From IMG/VR virus record IMGVR_UViG_2690316243_000015, positions 1 to 9,278 of that record: a stretch of 9,278 nt of DNA. One strand, 5' to 3'. Positions 1,975-9,278 of the stretch are shown one piece after another. The first letter of the stretch is position 1. Each line of letters opens with the position of its first letter. The position numbers were made by a program, and so were the translations under genes. The notes beneath the pieces are model-generated. The model saw nothing but the letters and a program-made list of their open reading frames with translations. It did no database searches and was not told the DNA's origin. Source of the DNA: a virus (lineage: Duplodnaviria > Heunggongvirae > Uroviricota > Caudoviricetes).

Positions 1975-3729
1975 CTATAAAAACGCGTCGCAATCGTCTG
2001 TTGTTATTGCGTTAGTCTGCGTTACCCCCTTAATTTTCCGCGTAATATATTCATGTCCGTAAACTTTCGCCGCTGGCTTCATAGCTTTGCTGAACTCAGC
2101 TACGTTCAGCGGCTTGTTCCTGCCGGCATACGCCATAAACGCCAGATAGACGCGGTAAAGGCTGTTTCTGGTCGTGTACCTGGAAGAGTCACCGCCGCCG
2201 CCCATCATCAGGCCGCGTGCTTCTTCCAGAAAGTTAAGGAACTGGCAAAATTCAATAACCGGATCCGTCTGTTGCTTTATTGCCAGTGCTTCATCACCGT
2301 CACGCTGTTCCAGTAGTAAAGCCCGTGCCTTTTCAGGGTCGGCAAAGTTCGCCAGCAAGCGGCGGATAATGACTGGGATTTCAGCCGCGATTTTTTCCGG
2401 TAGTTCTCTGTCTTTTTCGGCCTCACTGACGATATTGTCGAAACGGAAAATCACGCGACGACGTGCCACGCCTCCGGCCCGTTCGGTGAATATCATCGGG
2501 TTGTTATTGGTTGCCAGCACAACCGCCCTGATTACCGCTGTGAAACGCTTCTCATATTTCGGGTTAATTTCCACGGGGTCGCCGCCAGTGATTTTCTTGA
2601 TGCCCGTGCCTTCGCCTGTATATTTCGGCTGGTCTGCCAGGACAATAAGCCGACTCCCGACAACCTGCGCACGTCCACCAGCATCATCAAGCGATGTCAT
2701 TTCAGCGCTTACCGTGTTCTGTTTCCCTGCCAGAAGGCTGGCTATGTGCGTGAAAGTGCTCTTGCCGCTCCCGCCGTCTCCGGTGGCCTCAATAAACATC
2801 TGCCAGTCGTGGCGGTTCGCCATAATCATGTACAGCGCGGCGCATATGCGCATCATCTTGTGCGGGTCTTTTCCGGCTGCATGTTCAAGCCATTTGTGGA
2901 AGTTCGGCGCGTTGTCGCGGATGTTTTCCCCTGGTACTGGTGGCGTGTATTCAATGCCGTTGTGTGTGGTGAGCCAGTTCTCCGGCTGGTGCGGTGAAAA
3001 TTCCCCCGTTATCAGGTTAAGCACACCATTGGCAAACGGCAGCAAATCACCGGACGGCTCGCCCATCGGGTCAGCAATAACTTTTAACGCTTCAACGGCG
3101 TTATTAATTGCCCGCTTGCTGAATGTGGCCCCGTGTTCTGAATAAACCGCCACCATTTCGCGGCTCAGTTCCATTGTGCTGACCGGACACCATACCCCGC
3201 CGCGCCATACGTGAACGATTTCACTTTCAGGATGCACGCAAACGCCATCAAAGCGATCGGCAAGCAGCTGCGCGCGCTCACTGTCCGCCATCTGCGAAAG
3301 TTGCGCCTTTTGCGTTACCGGAAGCTCAATCACCAGACCATCAGAAAGATTCTGGCGCTCACGGGCCAGATATTCGCGCCAGTTCTGCACCTCCTGGCCG
3401 TGCATACCCTCAGGATAAAAATTTGCATCCTGTACGCCTGCCGCCGCCAGCTTCTGACCAATCGCCTTGATCATTACAGGCTCAAGATGTCCGGCTCTGT
3501 ATATGCGTGCTGATTTTCTGCCATCCGGCACAATTTGCAGATTATCTAGTTCGGATAGCTGCTGCTCTCCAAGCCACACAGGAGGCTCATTATCTCCGGC
3601 TGTACGCGCGTCATGTTCCTGCCACTGTTTCGCGTGTGCCCAGGCATCACTACCCGCAAAAATGATCACTTCGGTTTGAGCGTGTTTTATTCCGCGTGGC
3701 TGTTTTTTTACGTTCGGTGCCAGTTTCAT
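1975..3729 (-). CDS. P4 alpha-type replication protein (phage/plasmid primase, P4-family C-terminal domain with SF3-type helicase Walker A GDGGSGKST)
   Basis: 584-aa ORF; Walker A TGDGGSGKSTF; later VVLATNNNP resembles SF3 helicase motif C; overall resemblance to P4-family primase C-terminal region. AGGGG Shine-Dalgarno 8 nt upstream; ATGA overlap with the upstream gene. Confidence 0.8.
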   Translation of the reverse strand: MKLAPNVKKQPRGIKHAQTEVIIFAGSDAWAHAKQWQEHDARTAGDNEPPVWLGEQQLSELDNLQIVPDGRKSARIYRAGHLEPVMIKAIGQKLAAAGVQDANFYPEGMHGQEVQNWREYLARERQNLSDGLVIELPVTQKAQLSQMADSERAQLLADRFDGVCVHPESEIVHVWRGGVWCPVSTMELSREMVAVYSEHGATFSKRAINNAVEALKVIADPMGEPSGDLLPFANGVLNLITGEFSPHQPENWLTTHNGIEYTPPVPGENIRDNAPNFHKWLEHAAGKDPHKMMRICAALYMIMANRHDWQMFIEATGDGGSGKSTFTHIASLLAGKQNTVSAEMTSLDDAGGRAQVVGSRLIVLADQPKYTGEGTGIKKITGGDPVEINPKYEKRFTAVIRAVVLATNNNPMIFTERAGGVARRRVIFRFDNIVSEAEKDRELPEKIAAEIPVIIRRLLANFADPEKARALLLEQRDGDEALAIKQQTDPVIEFCQFLNFLEEARGLMMGGGGDSSRYTTRNSLYRVYLAFMAYAGRNKPLNVAEFSKAMKPAAKVYGHEYITRKIKGVTQTNAITTDDCDAFL

Positions 3730-4230: not shown

Positions 4231-4432
4231 GTCTCACCCCCTGAATATTCGCGTTAATCATTCCGGCACGTTCTGCGAGTTCCTGTAATGATTCCCTTGT
4301 TGCGACAATTGCTTCATCTGGCAGGTGGTAATTACATACCACGCGACCTTTATCCACATTGACCAGTAGCTGCCCGGTAAATTTCTCACGAAACTGAATG
4401 CGGTTAAGGTCGGTAAGTGACAGATTAATCAT
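4217..4432 (-). CDS. Small hypothetical protein (71 aa), paralogue of the adjacent 66-aa protein
   Basis: See the paralogue alignment above; GGAGGT Shine-Dalgarno 7 nt upstream; 8-nt overlap with the upstream 283-aa gene and 14-nt overlap with the downstream 66-aa gene. Confidence 0.5.
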   Translation of the reverse strand: MINLSLTDLNRIQFREKFTGQLLVNVDKGRVVCNYHLPDEAIVATRESLQELAERAGMINANIQGVRHESS

Positions 4433-5276
4433 GGCCCACCTCCTGACGAATACGGGCGGCGAATACCATCACGCAGCCATCAGGAGATTGCTGGCGGGCT
4501 TCCTGTTCGCTGGTGGCCACGATGTGAATCACGCGCGGTTGTGCTGTGCTCAGGGCGATAAAGCGCCAGATAAAGGCAGTTTGAGAATGTATAAGGGTAG
4601 GGGTAGTAGCCATGTTGGCAGCCTCCTTCAGATAGCAGGTTACGCTACCACCGGAAACGCCAATTTCGCTGGTGGTAGCCCAGACAGGGTTGGCGTAACC
4701 GGCTCTGAAGGATACCGGCGCTTCCGAAGAAGCCCCCGCCTGAGCCACCATTGATTGACAAAGGCGCTGGATTATACACCAACGCCCAAAAAATGGGTGA
4801 GTCAGACCTACGACATAAAAAAAGACGCTCGGCGCGTCATATGTCGCCTTCAGAATTTTCAGGACGCCAATCCTGGCCCCCGTTTTATGAGGTGCCTTAT
4901 AACCATAAACCGTGTTGCCGCATAACGGCAAGCTCTTTTTTATGGACTCCGAAAACTCACTATTGGAAGAACCAGAGGCACAGTACATCGCGCTCATTTC
5001 GTTAACGTTGCGCATGCGGACGAAGATTTTTGTGGAGTCACTACGCGAGCAGAACAGGTCATCTACGACCAGAAATTCTCTGGCGCAGCCGCTGACCTTC
5101 TCAACGCTAATATCATCGCCCGAGATTTCTGGCATGGTTAAGGCATCCGTTCCGACCACCAGCAAATGATAAACTTTGTTTGTATCTGCTGTATTAATGC
5201 CTGACTTTGCCGCCATATTGCTGGATTTTGGCGACATGCCAGCCAGTGAAAATATCTTCTTCTGGGCGGTTAGCAT
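4425..5276 (-). CDS. Hypothetical protein (283 aa), function unknown
   Basis: Long ORF with GGAGG Shine-Dalgarno 7 nt upstream of the ATG at 5274-5276; start overlaps the stop of the upstream small gene (ATGCTAA). No motif I can assign with confidence. Confidence 0.6.
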
Positions 5277-6267: not shown

Positions 6268-6699
6268 TTATGCGGCGGTGAGATTGTCCGGGTATAGATT
6301 GAGAATGTCGGCAATTTCAGGCTGAGAAAGTCCCTGATAGCCGCCAGCGTCGGCGTTATGGTTCACAAGCCGAATAACTTTTAGAACGTCACCGCGCCCG
6401 GTAAAGCGATAGCGTAAATGTGACCCTATCCCGTCGGGGTTCTTTTCGTCTATACGCTCAAGCTGAATATCAAGCCTGCGCTCTAACTCGCTGGCGTAGT
6501 TCCTTCCAGACGAAAGGCGGCAATAACGCAGAATGTCATTTTCTGTCCATCCCTCTATACCAGTACGCAGCATATAGACTCTGGCACGATGCTTTTTCGG
6601 TGTGCGCTTTGGTGCTTGAAGGGATTTTGTAAGGGGCGTAACATCAGATACGCGAATATCTGAATTAGCCGCCTGTAATGGGCGGTTTTTCTTTTCCAT
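6268..6699 (-). CDS. Hypothetical protein (143 aa), basic N-terminus, function unknown
   Basis: ORF with AAGGTGG Shine-Dalgarno; its ATG overlaps the AlpA stop by 1 nt (TGATG), indicating co-translation with alpA. No recognised family. Confidence 0.5.
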   Translation of the reverse strand: MEKKNRPLQAANSDIRVSDVTPLTKSLQAPKRTPKKHRARVYMLRTGIEGWTENDILRYCRLSSGRNYASELERRLDIQLERIDEKNPDGIGSHLRYRFTGRGDVLKVIRLVNHNADAGGYQGLSQPEIADILNLYPDNLTAA

Positions 6700-6902
6700 C
6701 AGGCCACCTTCCCGCGGCGTTCTGCCAGCCAGTTGTGAATCTCAACCGCATCAAACGCAGTTATTTTTTCTCCCAGCTTTACCGGACGTGGTAGTGAACC
6801 GTTTCTTACTTTACGGTCGATGGTGGATACACTAACGCCCAGCAATTCAGCCAGGCGGAAGCGTCTGATATAGCCTTTTGTAGGGATAGTGTCGATGTTC
6901 AT
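6699..6902 (-). CDS. alpA: AlpA/Vis-family transcriptional regulator / excision accessory protein (MerR-like HTH)
   Basis: 67 aa; IRRFRLAELLGVSVSTIDRKVRNGSLPRPVKLGEKITAFDAVEIHNWL fits the AlpA (CP4-57 regulatory protein) pattern of an HTH followed by P.P.KLG and a conserved W. Typical size and position next to a P4-type integrase. Confidence 0.8.
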   Translation of the reverse strand: MNIDTIPTKGYIRRFRLAELLGVSVSTIDRKVRNGSLPRPVKLGEKITAFDAVEIHNWLAERRGKVA

Positions 6903-6985
6903 GATTCCCGTAACCTCTTAGCGATAGTTGTTGCTTCGTTACGGGTATTTAATGGCGTGCACGCTCAAAAAGGAATGATCGTATT

Positions 6986-7028
6986 TTTTACTATCGTGAT
7001 AGTAAAATTTACTATCACCTTTTTTTCC
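6986..7028. promoter_or_regulatory. Perfect 23-bp palindrome GTGATAGTAAAATTTACTATCAC (6996-7018) with an extra TACTATC half-site (6989-6995), followed by a T7 run; operator-like site or terminator
   Basis: Direct reading: three TACTATC/GATAGTA half-sites centred ~10-11 bp apart; lies ~95-125 nt upstream of the alpA ATG and overlaps the stop codon of the 282-aa gene. Confidence 0.4.
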
Positions 7029-7863
7029 CTGCCGTGGTGCGTTCTTCCGGTGTTCTGTCTGCGTCGGCTATGAGTTTCTTCAGGTAATCTATGGATGGCT
7101 CATCATAGCCGCCCCCCAAAAGCGCCCAGTGGTTTATTGTGGCGTTCGCCCATGCTTCGTTGGTTTCCTTCCCGTTCTTCCCTTTACACTCTTCTGGGTA
7201 GTGCCGCTTCACATAAATCAACGCCAAGAGGCAAATTTCGCGCTTTTGCCTGTGGCGCTCTCTGTTTCCGTGCTCAACGTTTTTAACATCCTCATAAAGA
7301 GCTTGTAAGTTTATGCGAGTTTCGGGGCTGTATATGGGCTGGTTTTTGTCCATGCATTCGCCGATATATTCAACCCACGGCCTTGTTATGTACAAATCCT
7401 CTACGGATATTTCGTGGAAGGCATGTTTTGTATAATCGAGAAAAAAATAATAATTCGCACTTACGTCTAGTTCTCTTTTTCTGTGTGCGGGGCTGAATAT
7501 GCGTGCGGGAGTGTCAATAGAATCAAGCCCTGCGATGTCGAGTATATAGGAGGCGTTAACATGCCATAGCCCAAGCACATGGCAATCTATATGATTTACA
7601 ACGCCTGCCTTAAAGCTTTTTTCGTCCTCTACTTCAGTGATTATGTCGGCAAGTAATAAGCAGTCTTCTTTGACGTCTGGGAATAAAGAGCAATTGCGGT
7701 AAAGACTCGCGATGCTATGTAATGTGCCGTCGTAGCCGCAAAGGTACGCGCTCAAATATATAGATTCTGCCGCCGCCATAATCAAAAGATCATCAATATC
7801 TATTTCTAATAATTCGGCTGCTCTGTTAAGCCTGAAAAAAGGGGCGGGTGGTAATTTTTTCAT
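7015..7863 (-). CDS. Hypothetical protein (282 aa); AT-rich orphan gene between int and alpA
   Basis: Intact ORF with AAGGTG Shine-Dalgarno 7 nt upstream. Hand GC counts on three 60-nt lines inside it give ~35-43%, against ~60% for sampled lines in int and the primase. No recognised catalytic motif. Confidence 0.6.
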   Translation of the reverse strand: MKKLPPAPFFRLNRAAELLEIDIDDLLIMAAAESIYLSAYLCGYDGTLHSIASLYRNCSLFPDVKEDCLLLADIITEVEDEKSFKAGVVNHIDCHVLGLWHVNASYILDIAGLDSIDTPARIFSPAHRKRELDVSANYYFFLDYTKHAFHEISVEDLYITRPWVEYIGECMDKNQPIYSPETRINLQALYEDVKNVEHGNRERHRQKREICLLALIYVKRHYPEECKGKNGKETNEAWANATINHWALLGGGYDEPSIDYLKKLIADADRTPEERTTAGKKR

Positions 7864-7958
7864 TGCGTCACCTTTTACGCTGCGCCTTATTTTGTGATTG
7901 AGCCAGGCGGTAAGGCTTCCCGCTTTTCGCCCCGTCGAGCTAGGCTCAATCTATTCAG

Positions 7959-9278
7959 TTAGTTCGCCCTTCTGAGAGGCGTTACGTTGTAGTCTTTTCC
8001 GCTTTCCAGTGCCACCAGCAGATCAGCCCACTGTGCCAGTGCTGCTTTACGCTCATCAAAATACTGATGGCGGTTATAAATCCCCTCTACGCCCTTAATG
8101 CGATGATTGAGGCATCGTTCCGCCACAACAGGATCAACACCCAACGCTGCTAAATGAGTACGTGCGGTGCGTCGAAAGTCGTGAATCGTGAAATTAGGCA
8201 CATCCGGCATTTCGGCGCGAACCTTAGCCAGTGCTACGGGTAAAGTGCTTTCCTGAATATGTGGGATCATTCTGTTTTGCATCTTCCTGGCCGGAAGCAC
8301 CCATGCGCTATTACATGAAAAGGTGTGTAGCTCTCTCAACCATTCAACGGCTGGGGAAGGTAGAGGTATATCAATAGGGTCTCCGTTTTTGCTGCGTTCT
8401 TCCGGCAAATGCCATACCGCACCATCTAAATCAAACTCTTCCCATCGTGCGGCGCATAATTCCATTTTGCGGACGCATAACGCTAACAGTAATTTGAACG
8501 TGATTTCGTTCTGGCGACTGAATCCCTTAGCCGTGCGCATGGCTTTGAATAGCTGGATTAACTCATCGCGGGTTAACCAGCGGTCACGGGCAGCTTCTTT
8601 CCCTCCGGCGTCTGCCACCTCAAAGGCTGAACAGGGGTTAATCTCTAGCGCGTGCCGTTTGATTCCGTAGTCGAATATGCGGCGCGTCCATCTCAGCACG
8701 TCCGTTGCTATGGTCGGCGCTCCACGGTCAACAATACCTTTCAGCATGTCATCGATATGGCGCGGTTTCACGTCCTCTACCTTCATGCTGCCAATGCAGG
8801 GGTTTATATCTTTGTCGATACGGCGGCGGAGTATATCGGGGTGCTTCCAGCGCGGGAGGATCTGACGCTCAAAGTATTCAGCGGCAAGCTCTGAAACGCG
8901 CATAGCGTTCTTCTCTGCTTCCATCTTCGCCAGTGCTTCGGTTTTGCGCTTCTGCTTCTCTCCTGCAACGTCATAGCCCAGCGCAACGCGAGCCGATAGC
9001 TCTTTGGCTGTCTCTCTGGCCTTTGATAGTGATAGCTCGCTATACGAACCAATTAGCATGGCGCGGGACTTCCCTGCGAGTTTATAGCGGAATCTCCATG
9101 TGGGGGTTTTGTCGGCTTCACGGTAACGTAGGTATAAACCGTTACCGTCTGCCCGCCCCTCGAATCGCTCTCCGCTCTTAATCCATGCGCGGATCTGCAT
9201 GTCTGTTAGTTTTGGCATTTTGCGAATATCCAAACTTTGAATAGGGGGTGTACCCAAAGCAATGTACCCAAACCTCAT
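7959..9278 (-). CDS. int: Tyrosine site-specific integrase (P4-like); 5' end at or beyond the window edge
   Basis: C-terminal catalytic region with HDFRRTARTHL (HxxR) and terminal IYNRHQYFDER (candidate catalytic Tyr); N-terminal region typical of phage integrase arm-binding domains. The ORF reaches the window edge at 9278; an internal ATG at 9216-9218 (MPKLTDMQIRAW...) is a plausible true start but has no clear Shine-Dalgarno. Confidence 0.9.
   Translation of the reverse strand: MRFGYIALGTPPIQSLDIRKMPKLTDMQIRAWIKSGERFEGRADGNGLYLRYREADKTPTWRFRYKLAGKSRAMLIGSYSELSLSKARETAKELSARVALGYDVAGEKQKRKTEALAKMEAEKNAMRVSELAAEYFERQILPRWKHPDILRRRIDKDINPCIGSMKVEDVKPRHIDDMLKGIVDRGAPTIATDVLRWTRRIFDYGIKRHALEINPCSAFEVADAGGKEAARDRWLTRDELIQLFKAMRTAKGFSRQNEITFKLLLALCVRKMELCAARWEEFDLDGAVWHLPEERSKNGDPIDIPLPSPAVEWLRELHTFSCNSAWVLPARKMQNRMIPHIQESTLPVALAKVRAEMPDVPNFTIHDFRRTARTHLAALGVDPVVAERCLNHRIKGVEGIYNRHQYFDERKAALAQWADLLVALESGKDYNVTPLRRAN

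What the first reader, a model, noticed from the sequence alone, without database searches (positions are those of the whole stretch)
7015..7863. AT-rich orphan gene wedged between the integrase and alpA: candidate cargo or defence gene
The 282-aa ORF is compositionally distinct: ~35-43% GC in hand-counted 60-nt lines, against ~60% in int and the primase. It sits in the int-proximal slot, co-oriented with int and alpA, with its own strong Shine-Dalgarno. From what I recall of the literature on P4-like satellites and PICI-like islands, int-proximal slots are hotspots for variable anti-phage cargo, but I am not certain of the exact slot. The protein has no motif I can assign. The N-terminal ~30 aa (FFRLNRAAELLEIDIDDLL) could be a short helix-turn-helix-like segment, and the C-terminal 70 aa are highly charged. 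A single-gene system of unknown mechanism, for example abortive infection, is plausible.
Basis: partly seen in the sequence, partly recalled or inferred. Interest (0 to 1): 0.75.

Follow-up and report, generated by a model that had tools for sequence, protein, structure and literature searches.

The report
Swappable satellite gene behind int-alpA RNA
The 282-residue gene between the integrase and alpA is real and belongs to a large, unstudied protein family that sits in an exchangeable one-gene slot of phage-satellite islands, behind a conserved structured RNA leader; it is probably optional cargo, but whether it defends against phages is untested.

Summary
The ORF (7015-7863, minus strand, 282 aa) is real and its coordinates are exact. 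The composition claim is overstated: GC is 45.3%, against 51.7% for int and 53.3% for the primase, not 35-43% against 60%.

It is not an orphan. It belongs to an uncharacterised superfamily of 138 clusters at 50% identity, spread across Gammaproteobacteria. Members lie almost always between a tyrosine integrase and alpA.

The slot is exchangeable. Among E. coli islands sharing the alpA-PM1773 module (644 genomes), it holds this family in three forms (38, 77 and 34 genomes), two unrelated proteins (13 and 112), or nothing (281). Window and E. coli 042 share a 99%-identical AlpA, but the slot protein is only 56% identical.

The left junction sits exactly at the ATG. The conserved flank is the Rfam int-alpA RNA motif (7884-7950) plus a hairpin carrying the Shine-Dalgarno.

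The predicted fold is an AlpA/MerR/Xis-like winged helix with an acidic "recognition" helix, a variable middle, and a basic winged-helix-like C-terminal domain. No enzymatic domain was found, and there is no Pfam, PHROG, NCBIfam, PADLOC or PDB match.

Best reading: dispensable, binding-type satellite cargo, probably for phage or mobile-element interference. Defence is plausible but unproven. A helper-sensing regulatory role is not excluded.

The parts
7015..7863 (-). ORF282 ('X'), 282 aa, the slot gene
   Evidence: ORF list. Homologues lie in the same slot in E. coli 042, Enterobacter and Leclercia. The superfamily has 138 clusters.
7714..7863 (-). Residues 1-50: N-terminal winged-helix domain (strand, two helices, beta-hairpin wing), AlpA/MerR/Xis-like fold with an acidic second helix
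7429..7713 (-). Residues 51-145: variable, poorly modelled middle region, with only G98 and W100 conserved
   Evidence: Highest dN of the gene (0.65, against 0.12-0.26 elsewhere) between window and 042. pLDDT is below 50 over residues 51-89. Length and sequence vary in the alignments.
7039..7281 (-). Residues 195-275: conserved basic helical C-terminal domain, winged-helix-like; motif H.N.ER.A..RE..L.AA.Y....P.EC......WA
7884..7950 (-). int-alpA RNA motif (Rfam RF02996), which fills the int-X spacer; the conserved 5' flank of the slot
   Evidence: cmscan gives 60.6 bits against a gathering score of 35.8. The MFE fold reproduces the three-stem structure, z -2.6. The same motif lies directly upstream of the slot gene in 8 other loci, including Oceanimonas, where a toxin-antitoxin pair separates it from int.
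7864..7883 (-). Short leader hairpin GCGU-AAAAGGUG-ACGC carrying the Shine-Dalgarno in its loop, ending at the ATG; the left exchange junction
   Evidence: The sequence is identical in window, 042 and ECONIH1 up to the ATG and diverges immediately after it. Equivalent SD-in-loop hairpins with different stems occur in IMG/VR loci.
6996..7018 (-). Perfect palindrome GTGATAGTAAA-T-TTTACTATCAC overlapping the stop codon, followed by a third GATAGTAAA half-site
   Evidence: Read directly from the sequence. The scan flags it as terminator-like only for the opposite strand. RNA fold. This stretch diverges together with X, whereas the alpA-proximal part of the spacer is conserved.
7959..9218 (-). P4-type tyrosine integrase (419 aa by homology; the ORF extends to 9278), left boundary of the slot
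   Evidence: Pfam Arm-DNA-bind_3, Phage_int_M and Phage_integrase. It is 93% identical to the 042 integrase. The insertion site is yicC.
6699..6902 (-). alpA (67 aa), right boundary of the slot
   Evidence: Pfam Phage_AlpA, E 2e-8. It is 99% identical to 042 AlpA, dS 0.06.

Best explanation
ORF282 is optional, horizontally exchanged cargo of an int-alpA phage-satellite island (PICI-like, EcCIMP1-related, inserted at yicC). It is neither a core life-cycle gene nor a spurious ORF.

Shown: it occupies a one-gene expression site. The site's left border is a conserved structured leader, made of the int-alpA RNA motif plus an SD-in-loop hairpin, that ends exactly at the start codon. Its right border lies in the spacer before alpA.

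Inferred: no sigma-70-like promoter is detectable, and in other taxa the gene abuts or overlaps int. It is therefore probably transcribed with int in the quiescent island, with translation set by the leader.

Predicted from models: the protein has an N-terminal AlpA/MerR/Xis-like winged helix whose 'recognition' helix is acidic, so it is more likely a protein-contact module than a DNA reader. This is followed by a fast-evolving middle region and a basic winged-helix-like C-terminal domain. There is no catalytic domain.

Inferred mechanism: it acts by binding, not by enzymatic killing. The variable middle would recognise a phage or rival-element component. The C-terminal domain would hold nucleic acid. 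The result would be interference with an incoming or helper phage, or with a competing mobile element, to the benefit of the host and the island.
For: Variable slot. The alpA+PM1773 module is in 644 of 5426 E. coli genomes. Slot states are: this type 38, ECONIH1-type 77, elppa10-type 34, PK6-type 13, an unrelated 216-aa protein 112, and an empty 427-bp spacer 281.

Cassette exchange. Window versus 042 gives AlpA 99% identical with dS 0.06, int 93% with dS 0.75, and X 56% with dS 1.56. The leader is identical up to the ATG in islands with different slot genes.

Dispensability. EcCIMP1, a functional PICI, has only a small ORF here (PMC11773190).

Autonomous value. Intact orphan copies lie next to a tRNA gene, without int or alpA, in three Klebsiella species, with dN/dS 0.08.

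Rapid diversification. There are 138 clusters at 50% identity with conserved ends and a variable middle.

Fold..

Literature. PICIs carry immune systems at their 5' and 3' ends (PMC11364771).

Transcription. No sigma-70-like promoter lies in 6700-8100. X starts 4-10 bp after int, or overlaps it, in Enterobacter, Leclercia, Atlantibacter and a Vibrionaceae MAG.
Against: There is no similarity to any known defence protein, for this protein, for 131 relatives or for the alternative slot occupants.

All occupants are single proteins of 216-321 aa with unknown function. A general defence hotspot would be expected to hold varied, multi-gene and partly known systems. The uniform size hints instead at analogous, island-linked roles.

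The family is almost confined to this slot: 12 of 15 genome loci and 10 of 10 IMG/VR loci. It is absent from 50,697 phage genomes.

The two winged-helix-like domains also fit a regulator.

No phenotype data exist.
Confidence: 0.4

Rival explanations
1. X is a regulatory or helper-sensing component of the island, a functional analogue of the SaPI Stl repressor. It would be made in the quiescent state and hold alpA expression (or AlpA itself) in check through its winged-helix domains. It would be released when its variable middle region binds a specific helper-phage protein. Different slot proteins (X variants, DUF6387, PK6-type) would then tune islands to different helpers.
For: X always lies immediately upstream of alpA. 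This holds even where a RES/Xre toxin-antitoxin pair is inserted between int and the leader, as in Oceanimonas.

All slot occupants are single proteins of similar size. Four of the five yicC types share the N-terminal domain.

X has two winged-helix-like domains and no enzyme domain. The N-terminal domain aligns in register with AlpA.

Palindromic half-sites lie in the part of the X-alpA spacer that co-varies with X.

No repressor, and no helper inducer of alpA, is known for Gram-negative PICIs (PMC6092414).
Against: 281 E. coli genomes carry the island with an empty slot. EcCIMP1 of that type is helper-inducible and transferable.

Near-identical alpA genes and alpA-proximal leaders accompany unrelated slot proteins.

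The Klebsiella orphan copies are conserved without alpA.

All these islands already carry a C4/isrK antisense-RNA immunity module.

X is co-directional with alpA, not divergent as Stl is. The putative recognition helix is acidic.
Confidence: 0.22
2. X is an integrase accessory or recombination-directionality factor. Its Xis-like N-terminal domain would bend att DNA or contact Int.
For: The N-terminal fold resembles Pukovnik Xis and the GIsul2 AlpA-family excisionase. The gene abuts or overlaps int in several taxa.
Against: It is about three times longer than typical excisionases. Closely related yicC integrases (93% identical between window and 042; other types not measured) occur with unrelated slot proteins, and tRNA-Thr-site islands have an empty slot. 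The same X family rides with different integrases and att sites: yicC, mipA, tRNA and tmRNA. The Klebsiella orphan copies have no int. The helix expected to read DNA is acidic.
Confidence: 0.07
3. X serves another host- or island-directed accessory role unrelated to phages. Examples are a transcription factor acting on host genes (as EcCIMP1's PerC-like protein does), an anti-defence factor, or a packaging-site binding protein of small-terminase type.
Against: Nothing specific points to these roles. In these islands the packaging genes lie after the primase. Extreme diversification is more typical of conflict genes.
Confidence: 0.2

Closest known systems
Accessory or immune genes at the 5' (int-proximal) end of Gram-negative PICIs (Fillol-Salom et al. 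2022, as cited in PMC11364771)
   Same: The position lies between int and the alpA regulator. Content varies among related islands. Single genes of unknown family are carried by a satellite.
   Different: No phage-resistance phenotype is known for this family. There is no match to PADLOC models. Here the slot always holds exactly one gene of 216-321 aa behind a conserved RNA leader, which has not been described for PICI hotspots in the papers I could read.
EcCIMP1, E. coli PICI mobilised by phage Kapi1 (PMC11773190)
   Same: The regulatory backbone is the same: int, alpA, an antirepressor and a primase. The 042-type relatives also carry DUF2824 and DNA-transfer-like genes.
   Different: EcCIMP1 inserts at tRNA-Thr (proA). 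Between int and alpA it has only a small ORF (EcCIMP1_002), with no X. The 427-bp-spacer island of this type examined (L028) has no int-alpA RNA at Rfam's gathering score.
SaPI Stl / Gram-positive PICI Rpr master repressors (PMC6092414)
   Same: The genes are int-proximal, about 250-300 aa, and extremely divergent between islands. They combine an N-terminal HTH-type domain with variable remainders.
   Different: Stl is divergently transcribed from the operon it represses and is present in every island. X is co-directional with alpA and is missing from many islands. DNA binding by X is unproven.
int-alpA RNA motif, Rfam RF02996 (Weinberg et al. 2017 candidate RNA; function unknown, from memory and the Rfam label)
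   Same: The window copy scores 60.6 bits over the full model and lies just after int.
   Different: In these loci the motif is not followed by alpA. It is followed, at a fixed distance of about 20 nt, by a variable protein gene. In Oceanimonas it follows a toxin gene, not int. It therefore behaves as the leader of the slot gene.
BstA-type single-protein prophage defence (Owen et al. 2021; from memory, not tested here)
   Same: About 300 aa, with an N-terminal DNA-binding-type domain, no enzymatic domain, and carriage on a temperate element next to its regulatory region.
   Different: BstA has a KilA-N domain and there is no sequence relation. PADLOC gives no hit to X.

Membership tests
Known anti-phage defence proteins (PADLOC-DB 2.0) | Significant HMM match to a defence-system protein | tested here: not met
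   The only hit is PDC-M48B at E 0.016. Among 131 relatives there are only scattered hits, with best E-values of 5e-4 to 7e-3, to candidate models. The alternative slot proteins also give nothing. DefenseFinder models (the FS_ systems) could not be run.
PICI 5'-end accessory cargo | Located between int and the island regulator (alpA), co-oriented | tested here: met
PICI 5'-end accessory cargo | Content of the position varies among closely related islands | tested here: met
   There are six slot states in E. coli. dS is 1.56 for X against 0.06 for alpA.
PICI 5'-end accessory cargo | Dispensable for induction and transfer of the island | tested here: inconclusive
   Related functional islands lack it. 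No deletion of X itself has been made.
PICI 5'-end accessory cargo | Confers phage resistance or another host phenotype | not testable with these tools
   This needs cloning and phage challenge.
HTH_17 / MerR / Xis-type winged helix (N-terminal domain) | Strand, helix, helix, beta-hairpin topology similar to solved members | tested here: met
HTH_17 / MerR / Xis-type winged helix (N-terminal domain) | Match to the Pfam HTH_17, Phage_AlpA or MerR models | tested here: not met
   The window protein has no Pfam hit at E<=10. One of 131 relatives hits HTH_17 at E 0.005. hhalign against AlpA gives probability 18%.
HTH_17 / MerR / Xis-type winged helix (N-terminal domain) | Basic or polar DNA-reading residues on the second helix | tested here: not met
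   The family consensus for helix 2 is C-E-V-E-D-L-L-H-W, and the window has EIDIDDLLIM.
SaPI Stl-like master repressor | Present in all islands of the family and divergently transcribed from the regulated operon | tested here: not met
   The slot is empty in 281 genomes. X is co-directional with alpA.
SaPI Stl-like master repressor | Binds operator DNA and is released by a helper-phage protein | not testable with these tools
   Palindromes exist downstream of X, but binding is untested.
Excisionase / recombination directionality factor | Small (about 55-120 aa) protein whose type follows the integrase type | tested here: not met
   X is 282 aa. Closely related yicC integrases occur with unrelated slot genes. 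The same X family occurs with different integrases and att sites. Orphan copies have no int.
int-alpA RNA (RF02996), for the leader | Covariance-model score above Rfam's gathering threshold over the full model | tested here: met
   The score is 60.6 bits against 35.8, over model positions 1-71.
P4-like satellite hotspot cargo (Rousset et al. 2022) | P4 core genes (psu, delta, sid) with the hotspot between psu/cos and int | tested here: inconclusive
   No Psu, Sid or Delta domains were found among the window's proteins, but the window ends before the packaging end of the island. P4-like traits are present: C4-type RNA, Icd/Ash, a Vis-like AlpA and a D5-type primase. The slot here lies on the alpA side of int, unlike P4 (from memory).

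The most novel reading that the evidence does not exclude
The int-alpA RNA motif and the gene behind it form a dedicated, exchangeable module of Gram-negative int-alpA satellites. The unrelated single proteins that occupy it (this winged-helix family, DUF6387, the PK6 type and others) would be functional analogues of SaPI Stl. They would be helper-phage sensors that gate alpA induction. This would supply the regulator and specificity determinant that has been missing for Gram-negative PICIs since 2018, and would give an orphan Rfam RNA its first function as the translational leader of that sensor.
Probability: 0.15. Interest if true: 0.8.

Novelty: new member of a known kind. Interest (0 to 1): 0.55.

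Why it matters
Phage satellites are a major reservoir of anti-phage and inter-element conflict genes, and how Gram-negative PICIs sense their helpers is still unknown. This gene marks a large protein superfamily with no annotation anywhere. The family is nearly confined to one exchangeable position of int-alpA islands across Gammaproteobacteria.

The work also shows that an orphan Rfam motif (int-alpA RNA) is the conserved leader of that position. This defines a simple search handle (int, then the RNA motif, then one variable gene, then alpA) for collecting many untested satellite cargo families. It also sets up a direct experiment, defence versus helper sensing, on a gene found in Shigella boydii and in enteroaggregative E. 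coli 042.

Tried and rejected
Searches that found nothing:
- Pfam, PHROGs, NCBIfam and PADLOC scans of the protein gave nothing usable.
- Pfam and PADLOC scans of 131 relatives, and a profile search of PDB sequences, gave nothing.
- Foldseek against viral structures (BFVD) gave no match at E<=0.001.
- Four RefSeq accessions of slot proteins appear in no paper held.
- tblastn against 50,697 phage genomes gave no match.

Resources that were unavailable:
- The afdb50 library was not available.
- The alignment of all 131 relatives was too diverse for the search for related loci, so a 16-member subset was used.
- The Fillol-Salom 2022 Cell paper and the Weinberg 2017 supplements were not held. The tested PICI genes and the original description of the RNA motif could therefore not be compared.

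Ideas considered and dropped:
- Spurious ORF. Rejected on conservation and on dN/dS.
- The palindrome at the stop codon as a terminator of X. Rejected because the T-run is on the other strand.
- The operator-like half-sites as a conserved X-binding site. Not supported, because Enterobacter and Leclercia islands with the same C-terminal domain lack them.
- The PK6-type and 216-aa slot proteins as hidden members of the family. The PK6 type shares only the N-terminal domain, at hhalign E 1.4e-4. The 216-aa protein shares nothing.

Full report
**The observation**

The window has an ORF at 7015-7863 on the minus strand encoding 282 aa. It lies between a P4-type tyrosine integrase (7959-9278) and a 67-aa AlpA homologue (6699-6902), and all three are co-oriented.

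The whole window is one satellite-like island. The gene order is int, ORF282, alpA, a PM1773-family protein, an AntA antirepressor, DUF4222, an Ash/Icd region, a D5-type primase-helicase and SSB.

The composition claim is overstated. The gene has 45.3% GC, and its 60-nt lines range from 38% to 55%. That compares with 51.7% for int, 53.3% for the primase and 51.0% for the window.

A Shine-Dalgarno (AAGGTG) does precede the ATG. No sigma-70-like promoter is found anywhere in 6700-8100.

**Not an orphan**

E. coli 042 and 37 other complete E. coli genomes carry a 281-aa homologue (56% identity) at the same position of an island inserted next to yicC.

The exact window protein occurs in Shigella boydii Sb227 and in many sequencing runs, also at yicC.

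Enterobacter hormaechei and Leclercia have 312-aa relatives (33-37% identity) starting 4-10 bp after int. In Leclercia this is at a different insertion site.

A profile search of 1.84 billion representative proteins finds 138 clusters at 50% identity. Nearly all are 240-400 aa (most 260-350), apart from a few shorter fragments.

Shared features of the family:
- An N-terminal motif: [LI]PP[LF]EYC.[LI].RAA.LL.C[ED].[ED]D[LI][LI]HW.
- A G-[LF]-W and a D-L-[WFY]-I-[TS]-R motif in the middle.
- In most members, a C-terminal motif: H.N.ER.A..RE..L.AA.Y....P.EC......WA.

None of the members has a significant Pfam, PADLOC or PDB-sequence match. Those with names in public records are all called hypothetical.

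**Where the family lives**

A scan of one genome per species returned 15 loci. They come from Zobellella, Oceanimonas, Aeromonas, Tolumonas, Rheinheimera, Arsukibacterium, Gilliamella, a Vibrionaceae MAG, Atlantibacter, Klebsiella and a Rhodocyclales MAG.

In 12 of the 15, the gene lies downstream of a tyrosine integrase on the same strand and directly upstream of an AlpA homologue. In 11 it directly follows int.

In Oceanimonas an Xre/RES toxin-antitoxin pair sits between int and the gene. The gene still abuts alpA.

The three exceptions are intact copies in Klebsiella spallanzanii, K. grimontii and K. michiganensis. Each lies next to a tRNA gene, with no int or alpA. They keep the N-terminal and middle regions but have a different C-terminus. 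K. spallanzanii versus K. grimontii gives dN/dS = 0.08.

There is no homologue in 50,697 phage genomes. Two of the three weak plasmid hits are 22-kb Klebsiella pneumoniae records; the one examined (22.9 kb) is a circular copy of such an island, with a 317-aa family member after int.

**The slot is exchangeable**

In 5426 complete E. coli genomes, DNA related to the window's alpA+PM1773 module occurs in 644. The space between int and alpA holds one of the following:

| Slot content | Genomes |
|---|---|
| Window/042 type | 38 |
| 321-aa relative sharing the C-terminal half and N-terminus (ECONIH1 type) | 77 |
| 307-aa relative sharing the N-terminal 180 residues (elppa10 type) | 34 |
| 293-aa protein of another, widespread family sharing at most the N-terminal domain (PK6 type) | 13 |
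| Unrelated 216-aa protein | 112 |
| No annotated gene, only a 427-bp spacer (tRNA-Thr islands of the EcCIMP1 type) | 281 |

EcCIMP1 is an experimentally functional PICI whose only ORF at this place is small (PMC11773190).

Divergence between window and 042 differs sharply across the three genes:

| Gene | Amino-acid identity | dS |
|---|---|---|
| AlpA | 99% | 0.06 |
| Int | 93% | 0.75 |
| Slot protein | 56% | 1.56 |

Within the slot protein, dN is highest in residues 46-145. The gene has therefore been replaced by recombination inside an otherwise recent common backbone.

**A conserved RNA leader marks the left border**

Rfam's int-alpA RNA motif (RF02996) matches window 7884-7950 on the minus strand at 60.6 bits, against a gathering score of 35.8. 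It fills the spacer between int and the ORF. The minimum-energy fold reproduces its closing stem and two hairpins.

The motif lies directly upstream of the slot gene in several other islands:
- The E. coli islands 042, ECONIH1, elppa10 and PK6.
- Tolumonas and the Rhodocyclales MAG.
- Oceanimonas, where it follows the toxin gene rather than int.

It is absent where the slot is empty, where the 216-aa gene overlaps int, and where the family member abuts int.

The sequence from the int stop through the motif to the ATG is identical in window, 042 and ECONIH1. It diverges from the first codon onward.

I also searched IMG/VR with the motif's conserved core. Of about 27 genuine loci, two are cut off before the slot gene. 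Each of the other 25 has one ORF of 227-313 aa starting about 20 nt after the motif. These ORFs are a family member (10 loci), DUF6387 proteins (12 loci) and three singletons.

A short hairpin presenting the Shine-Dalgarno in its loop precedes the start codon in all of them, with different stem sequences.

So the 'own strong SD' belongs to a shared leader. The motif named for lying between int and alpA is, in these loci, the leader of a variable gene.

**What the protein looks like**

AlphaFold models from shallow alignments (8-9 sequences) have mean pLDDT 65-66. They are confident for residues 1-45, 150-178 and 205-270.

The helix that reads DNA in those proteins is acidic throughout the family: consensus CEVEDLLHW, window EIDIDDLLIM. 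I therefore regard DNA binding by this domain as doubtful and a protein-contact role as more likely. This is inference.

No catalytic domain or motif is recognisable.

**Interpretation**

Shown:
- The gene is real and is under purifying selection.
- It is optional among close relatives and is exchanged as a cassette.
- It belongs to a large unannotated family tied to the int-alpA position.
- It sits behind a conserved structured leader.

Inferred:
- It is co-transcribed with int in the quiescent island. There is no promoter, and it is coupled to int in other taxa.
- It acts by binding rather than by catalysis.

The reading I favour (confidence 0.4) is satellite cargo that interferes with phages or rival elements. 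Four points support it:
- Published evidence that PICIs carry immune genes at their int-proximal end (PMC11364771).
- The gene's dispensability.
- Its diversification.
- The conserved orphan copies in Klebsiella.

Several points argue against a simple 'defence hotspot':
- Every occupant is one protein of 216-321 aa.
- None is a known defence gene.
- The family hardly occurs anywhere else.

These features fit a second reading (0.22). In it, the slot proteins are interchangeable helper-sensing regulators of alpA, analogous to SaPI Stl. This would address the open question of how Gram-negative PICIs are kept silent and induced (PMC6092414). Against it are the empty slots in functional islands, the unchanged alpA-proximal leader beside unrelated slot genes, the alpA-less orphans, and the C4/isrK RNA immunity module present in all these islands.

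An excisionase-type role is unlikely (0.07). Other accessory roles remain open (0.2).

**Comparison with known systems and novelty**

The gene fits the known kind 'accessory gene at the 5' end of a PICI-like satellite', but it matches no known defence, regulatory or excision family. I file it as a new member of a known kind.

Two things appear to be new:
- The extent and positional fidelity of the family.
- The link between the slot and the int-alpA RNA motif.

The variable-slot and cargo ideas hold. 'AT-rich orphan' does not hold. 'Defence' remains a hypothesis that needs the experiments listed.

Noticed in passing
window 4668-4755 (-) and 4818-4895 (-): Rfam C4 antisense RNA (79.9 bits) and isrK (62.9 bits) lie inside the long 'Ash family' ORF 4425-5276. 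This is a P1/P7/P4-type antisense-RNA immunity module (c4 with its targets, then icd/ant). It is present in all related islands examined, some with the c4-a1b1 target motif. The 283-aa ORF call is probably too long at its 5' end.
   Followed up: partly
window 6907-6945 (-): A conserved hairpin, CCCGUAAC-N23-GUUACGGG, lies immediately before the alpA start, with the alpA Shine-Dalgarno just before its 3' arm. It is kept in 042, ECONIH1, elppa10, Enterobacter and Leclercia. In the PK6 island it shows a compensatory change (CUUGUAAC/GUUACGAG). It is a possible translational control element of alpA.
   Followed up: partly
window 6975-7018 (-): A perfect 11-bp-arm palindrome, GTGATAGTAAA-T-TTTACTATCAC, overlaps the ORF282 stop codon. 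It is followed by further GATAGTAAA-like half-sites spaced about two helical turns apart. Imperfect versions occur in 042, but not in islands with other slot genes. Function unknown (operator or RNA hairpin).
   Followed up: partly
L013 5655-6772 (Oceanimonas baumannii): An Xre-like antitoxin plus RES-domain toxin pair is inserted between the integrase and the int-alpA RNA leader. This is a second cargo site next to int, with the leader and slot gene left intact.
   Followed up: partly
L016-L018 (Klebsiella spallanzanii, grimontii, michiganensis), about 6950-7830: Intact orphan family members (253-287 aa) lie next to a tRNA gene, with no integrase, alpA or other island genes. They are under strong purifying selection (dN/dS 0.08). 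They look like a retained remnant of a lost island.
   Followed up: partly
L065 (Klebsiella pneumoniae 'plasmid unnamed1', CP033626, 22,859 bp circular): This record is annotated as a non-mobilizable plasmid, but its gene order is int, a 317-aa family member, alpA, PM1773-like, AntA, DUF4222 and Icd. It is most likely an excised circular satellite captured in the assembly.
   Followed up: no
L035, L059 and ten other IMG/VR loci, ORF starting about 63 nt after the motif core: DUF6387 proteins (268-301 aa; Pfam E 1e-27 to 1e-29) are the commonest alternative occupant of the slot behind the int-alpA RNA leader. This gives that domain of unknown function a defined genomic niche.
   Followed up: partly
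window 1975-3729 versus L001 1868-4624, L031 15102-17861: The same int-X-alpA-PM1773-AntA front end is joined to different replication modules: a D5_N/DUF5906 helicase-primase in the window, and a Zn-ribbon/TOPRIM/DUF927 primase in 042 and in another carrier of the identical X allele. In Shigella boydii Sb227 the island is cut by IS elements after antA. The backbone is mosaic.
   Followed up: no
window 9219-9278 (-): The integrase ORF as listed (439 aa) starts 20 codons upstream of the start used in annotated homologues (419 aa, MPKLTDMQ...). The longer N-terminus is probably not translated.
   Followed up: no
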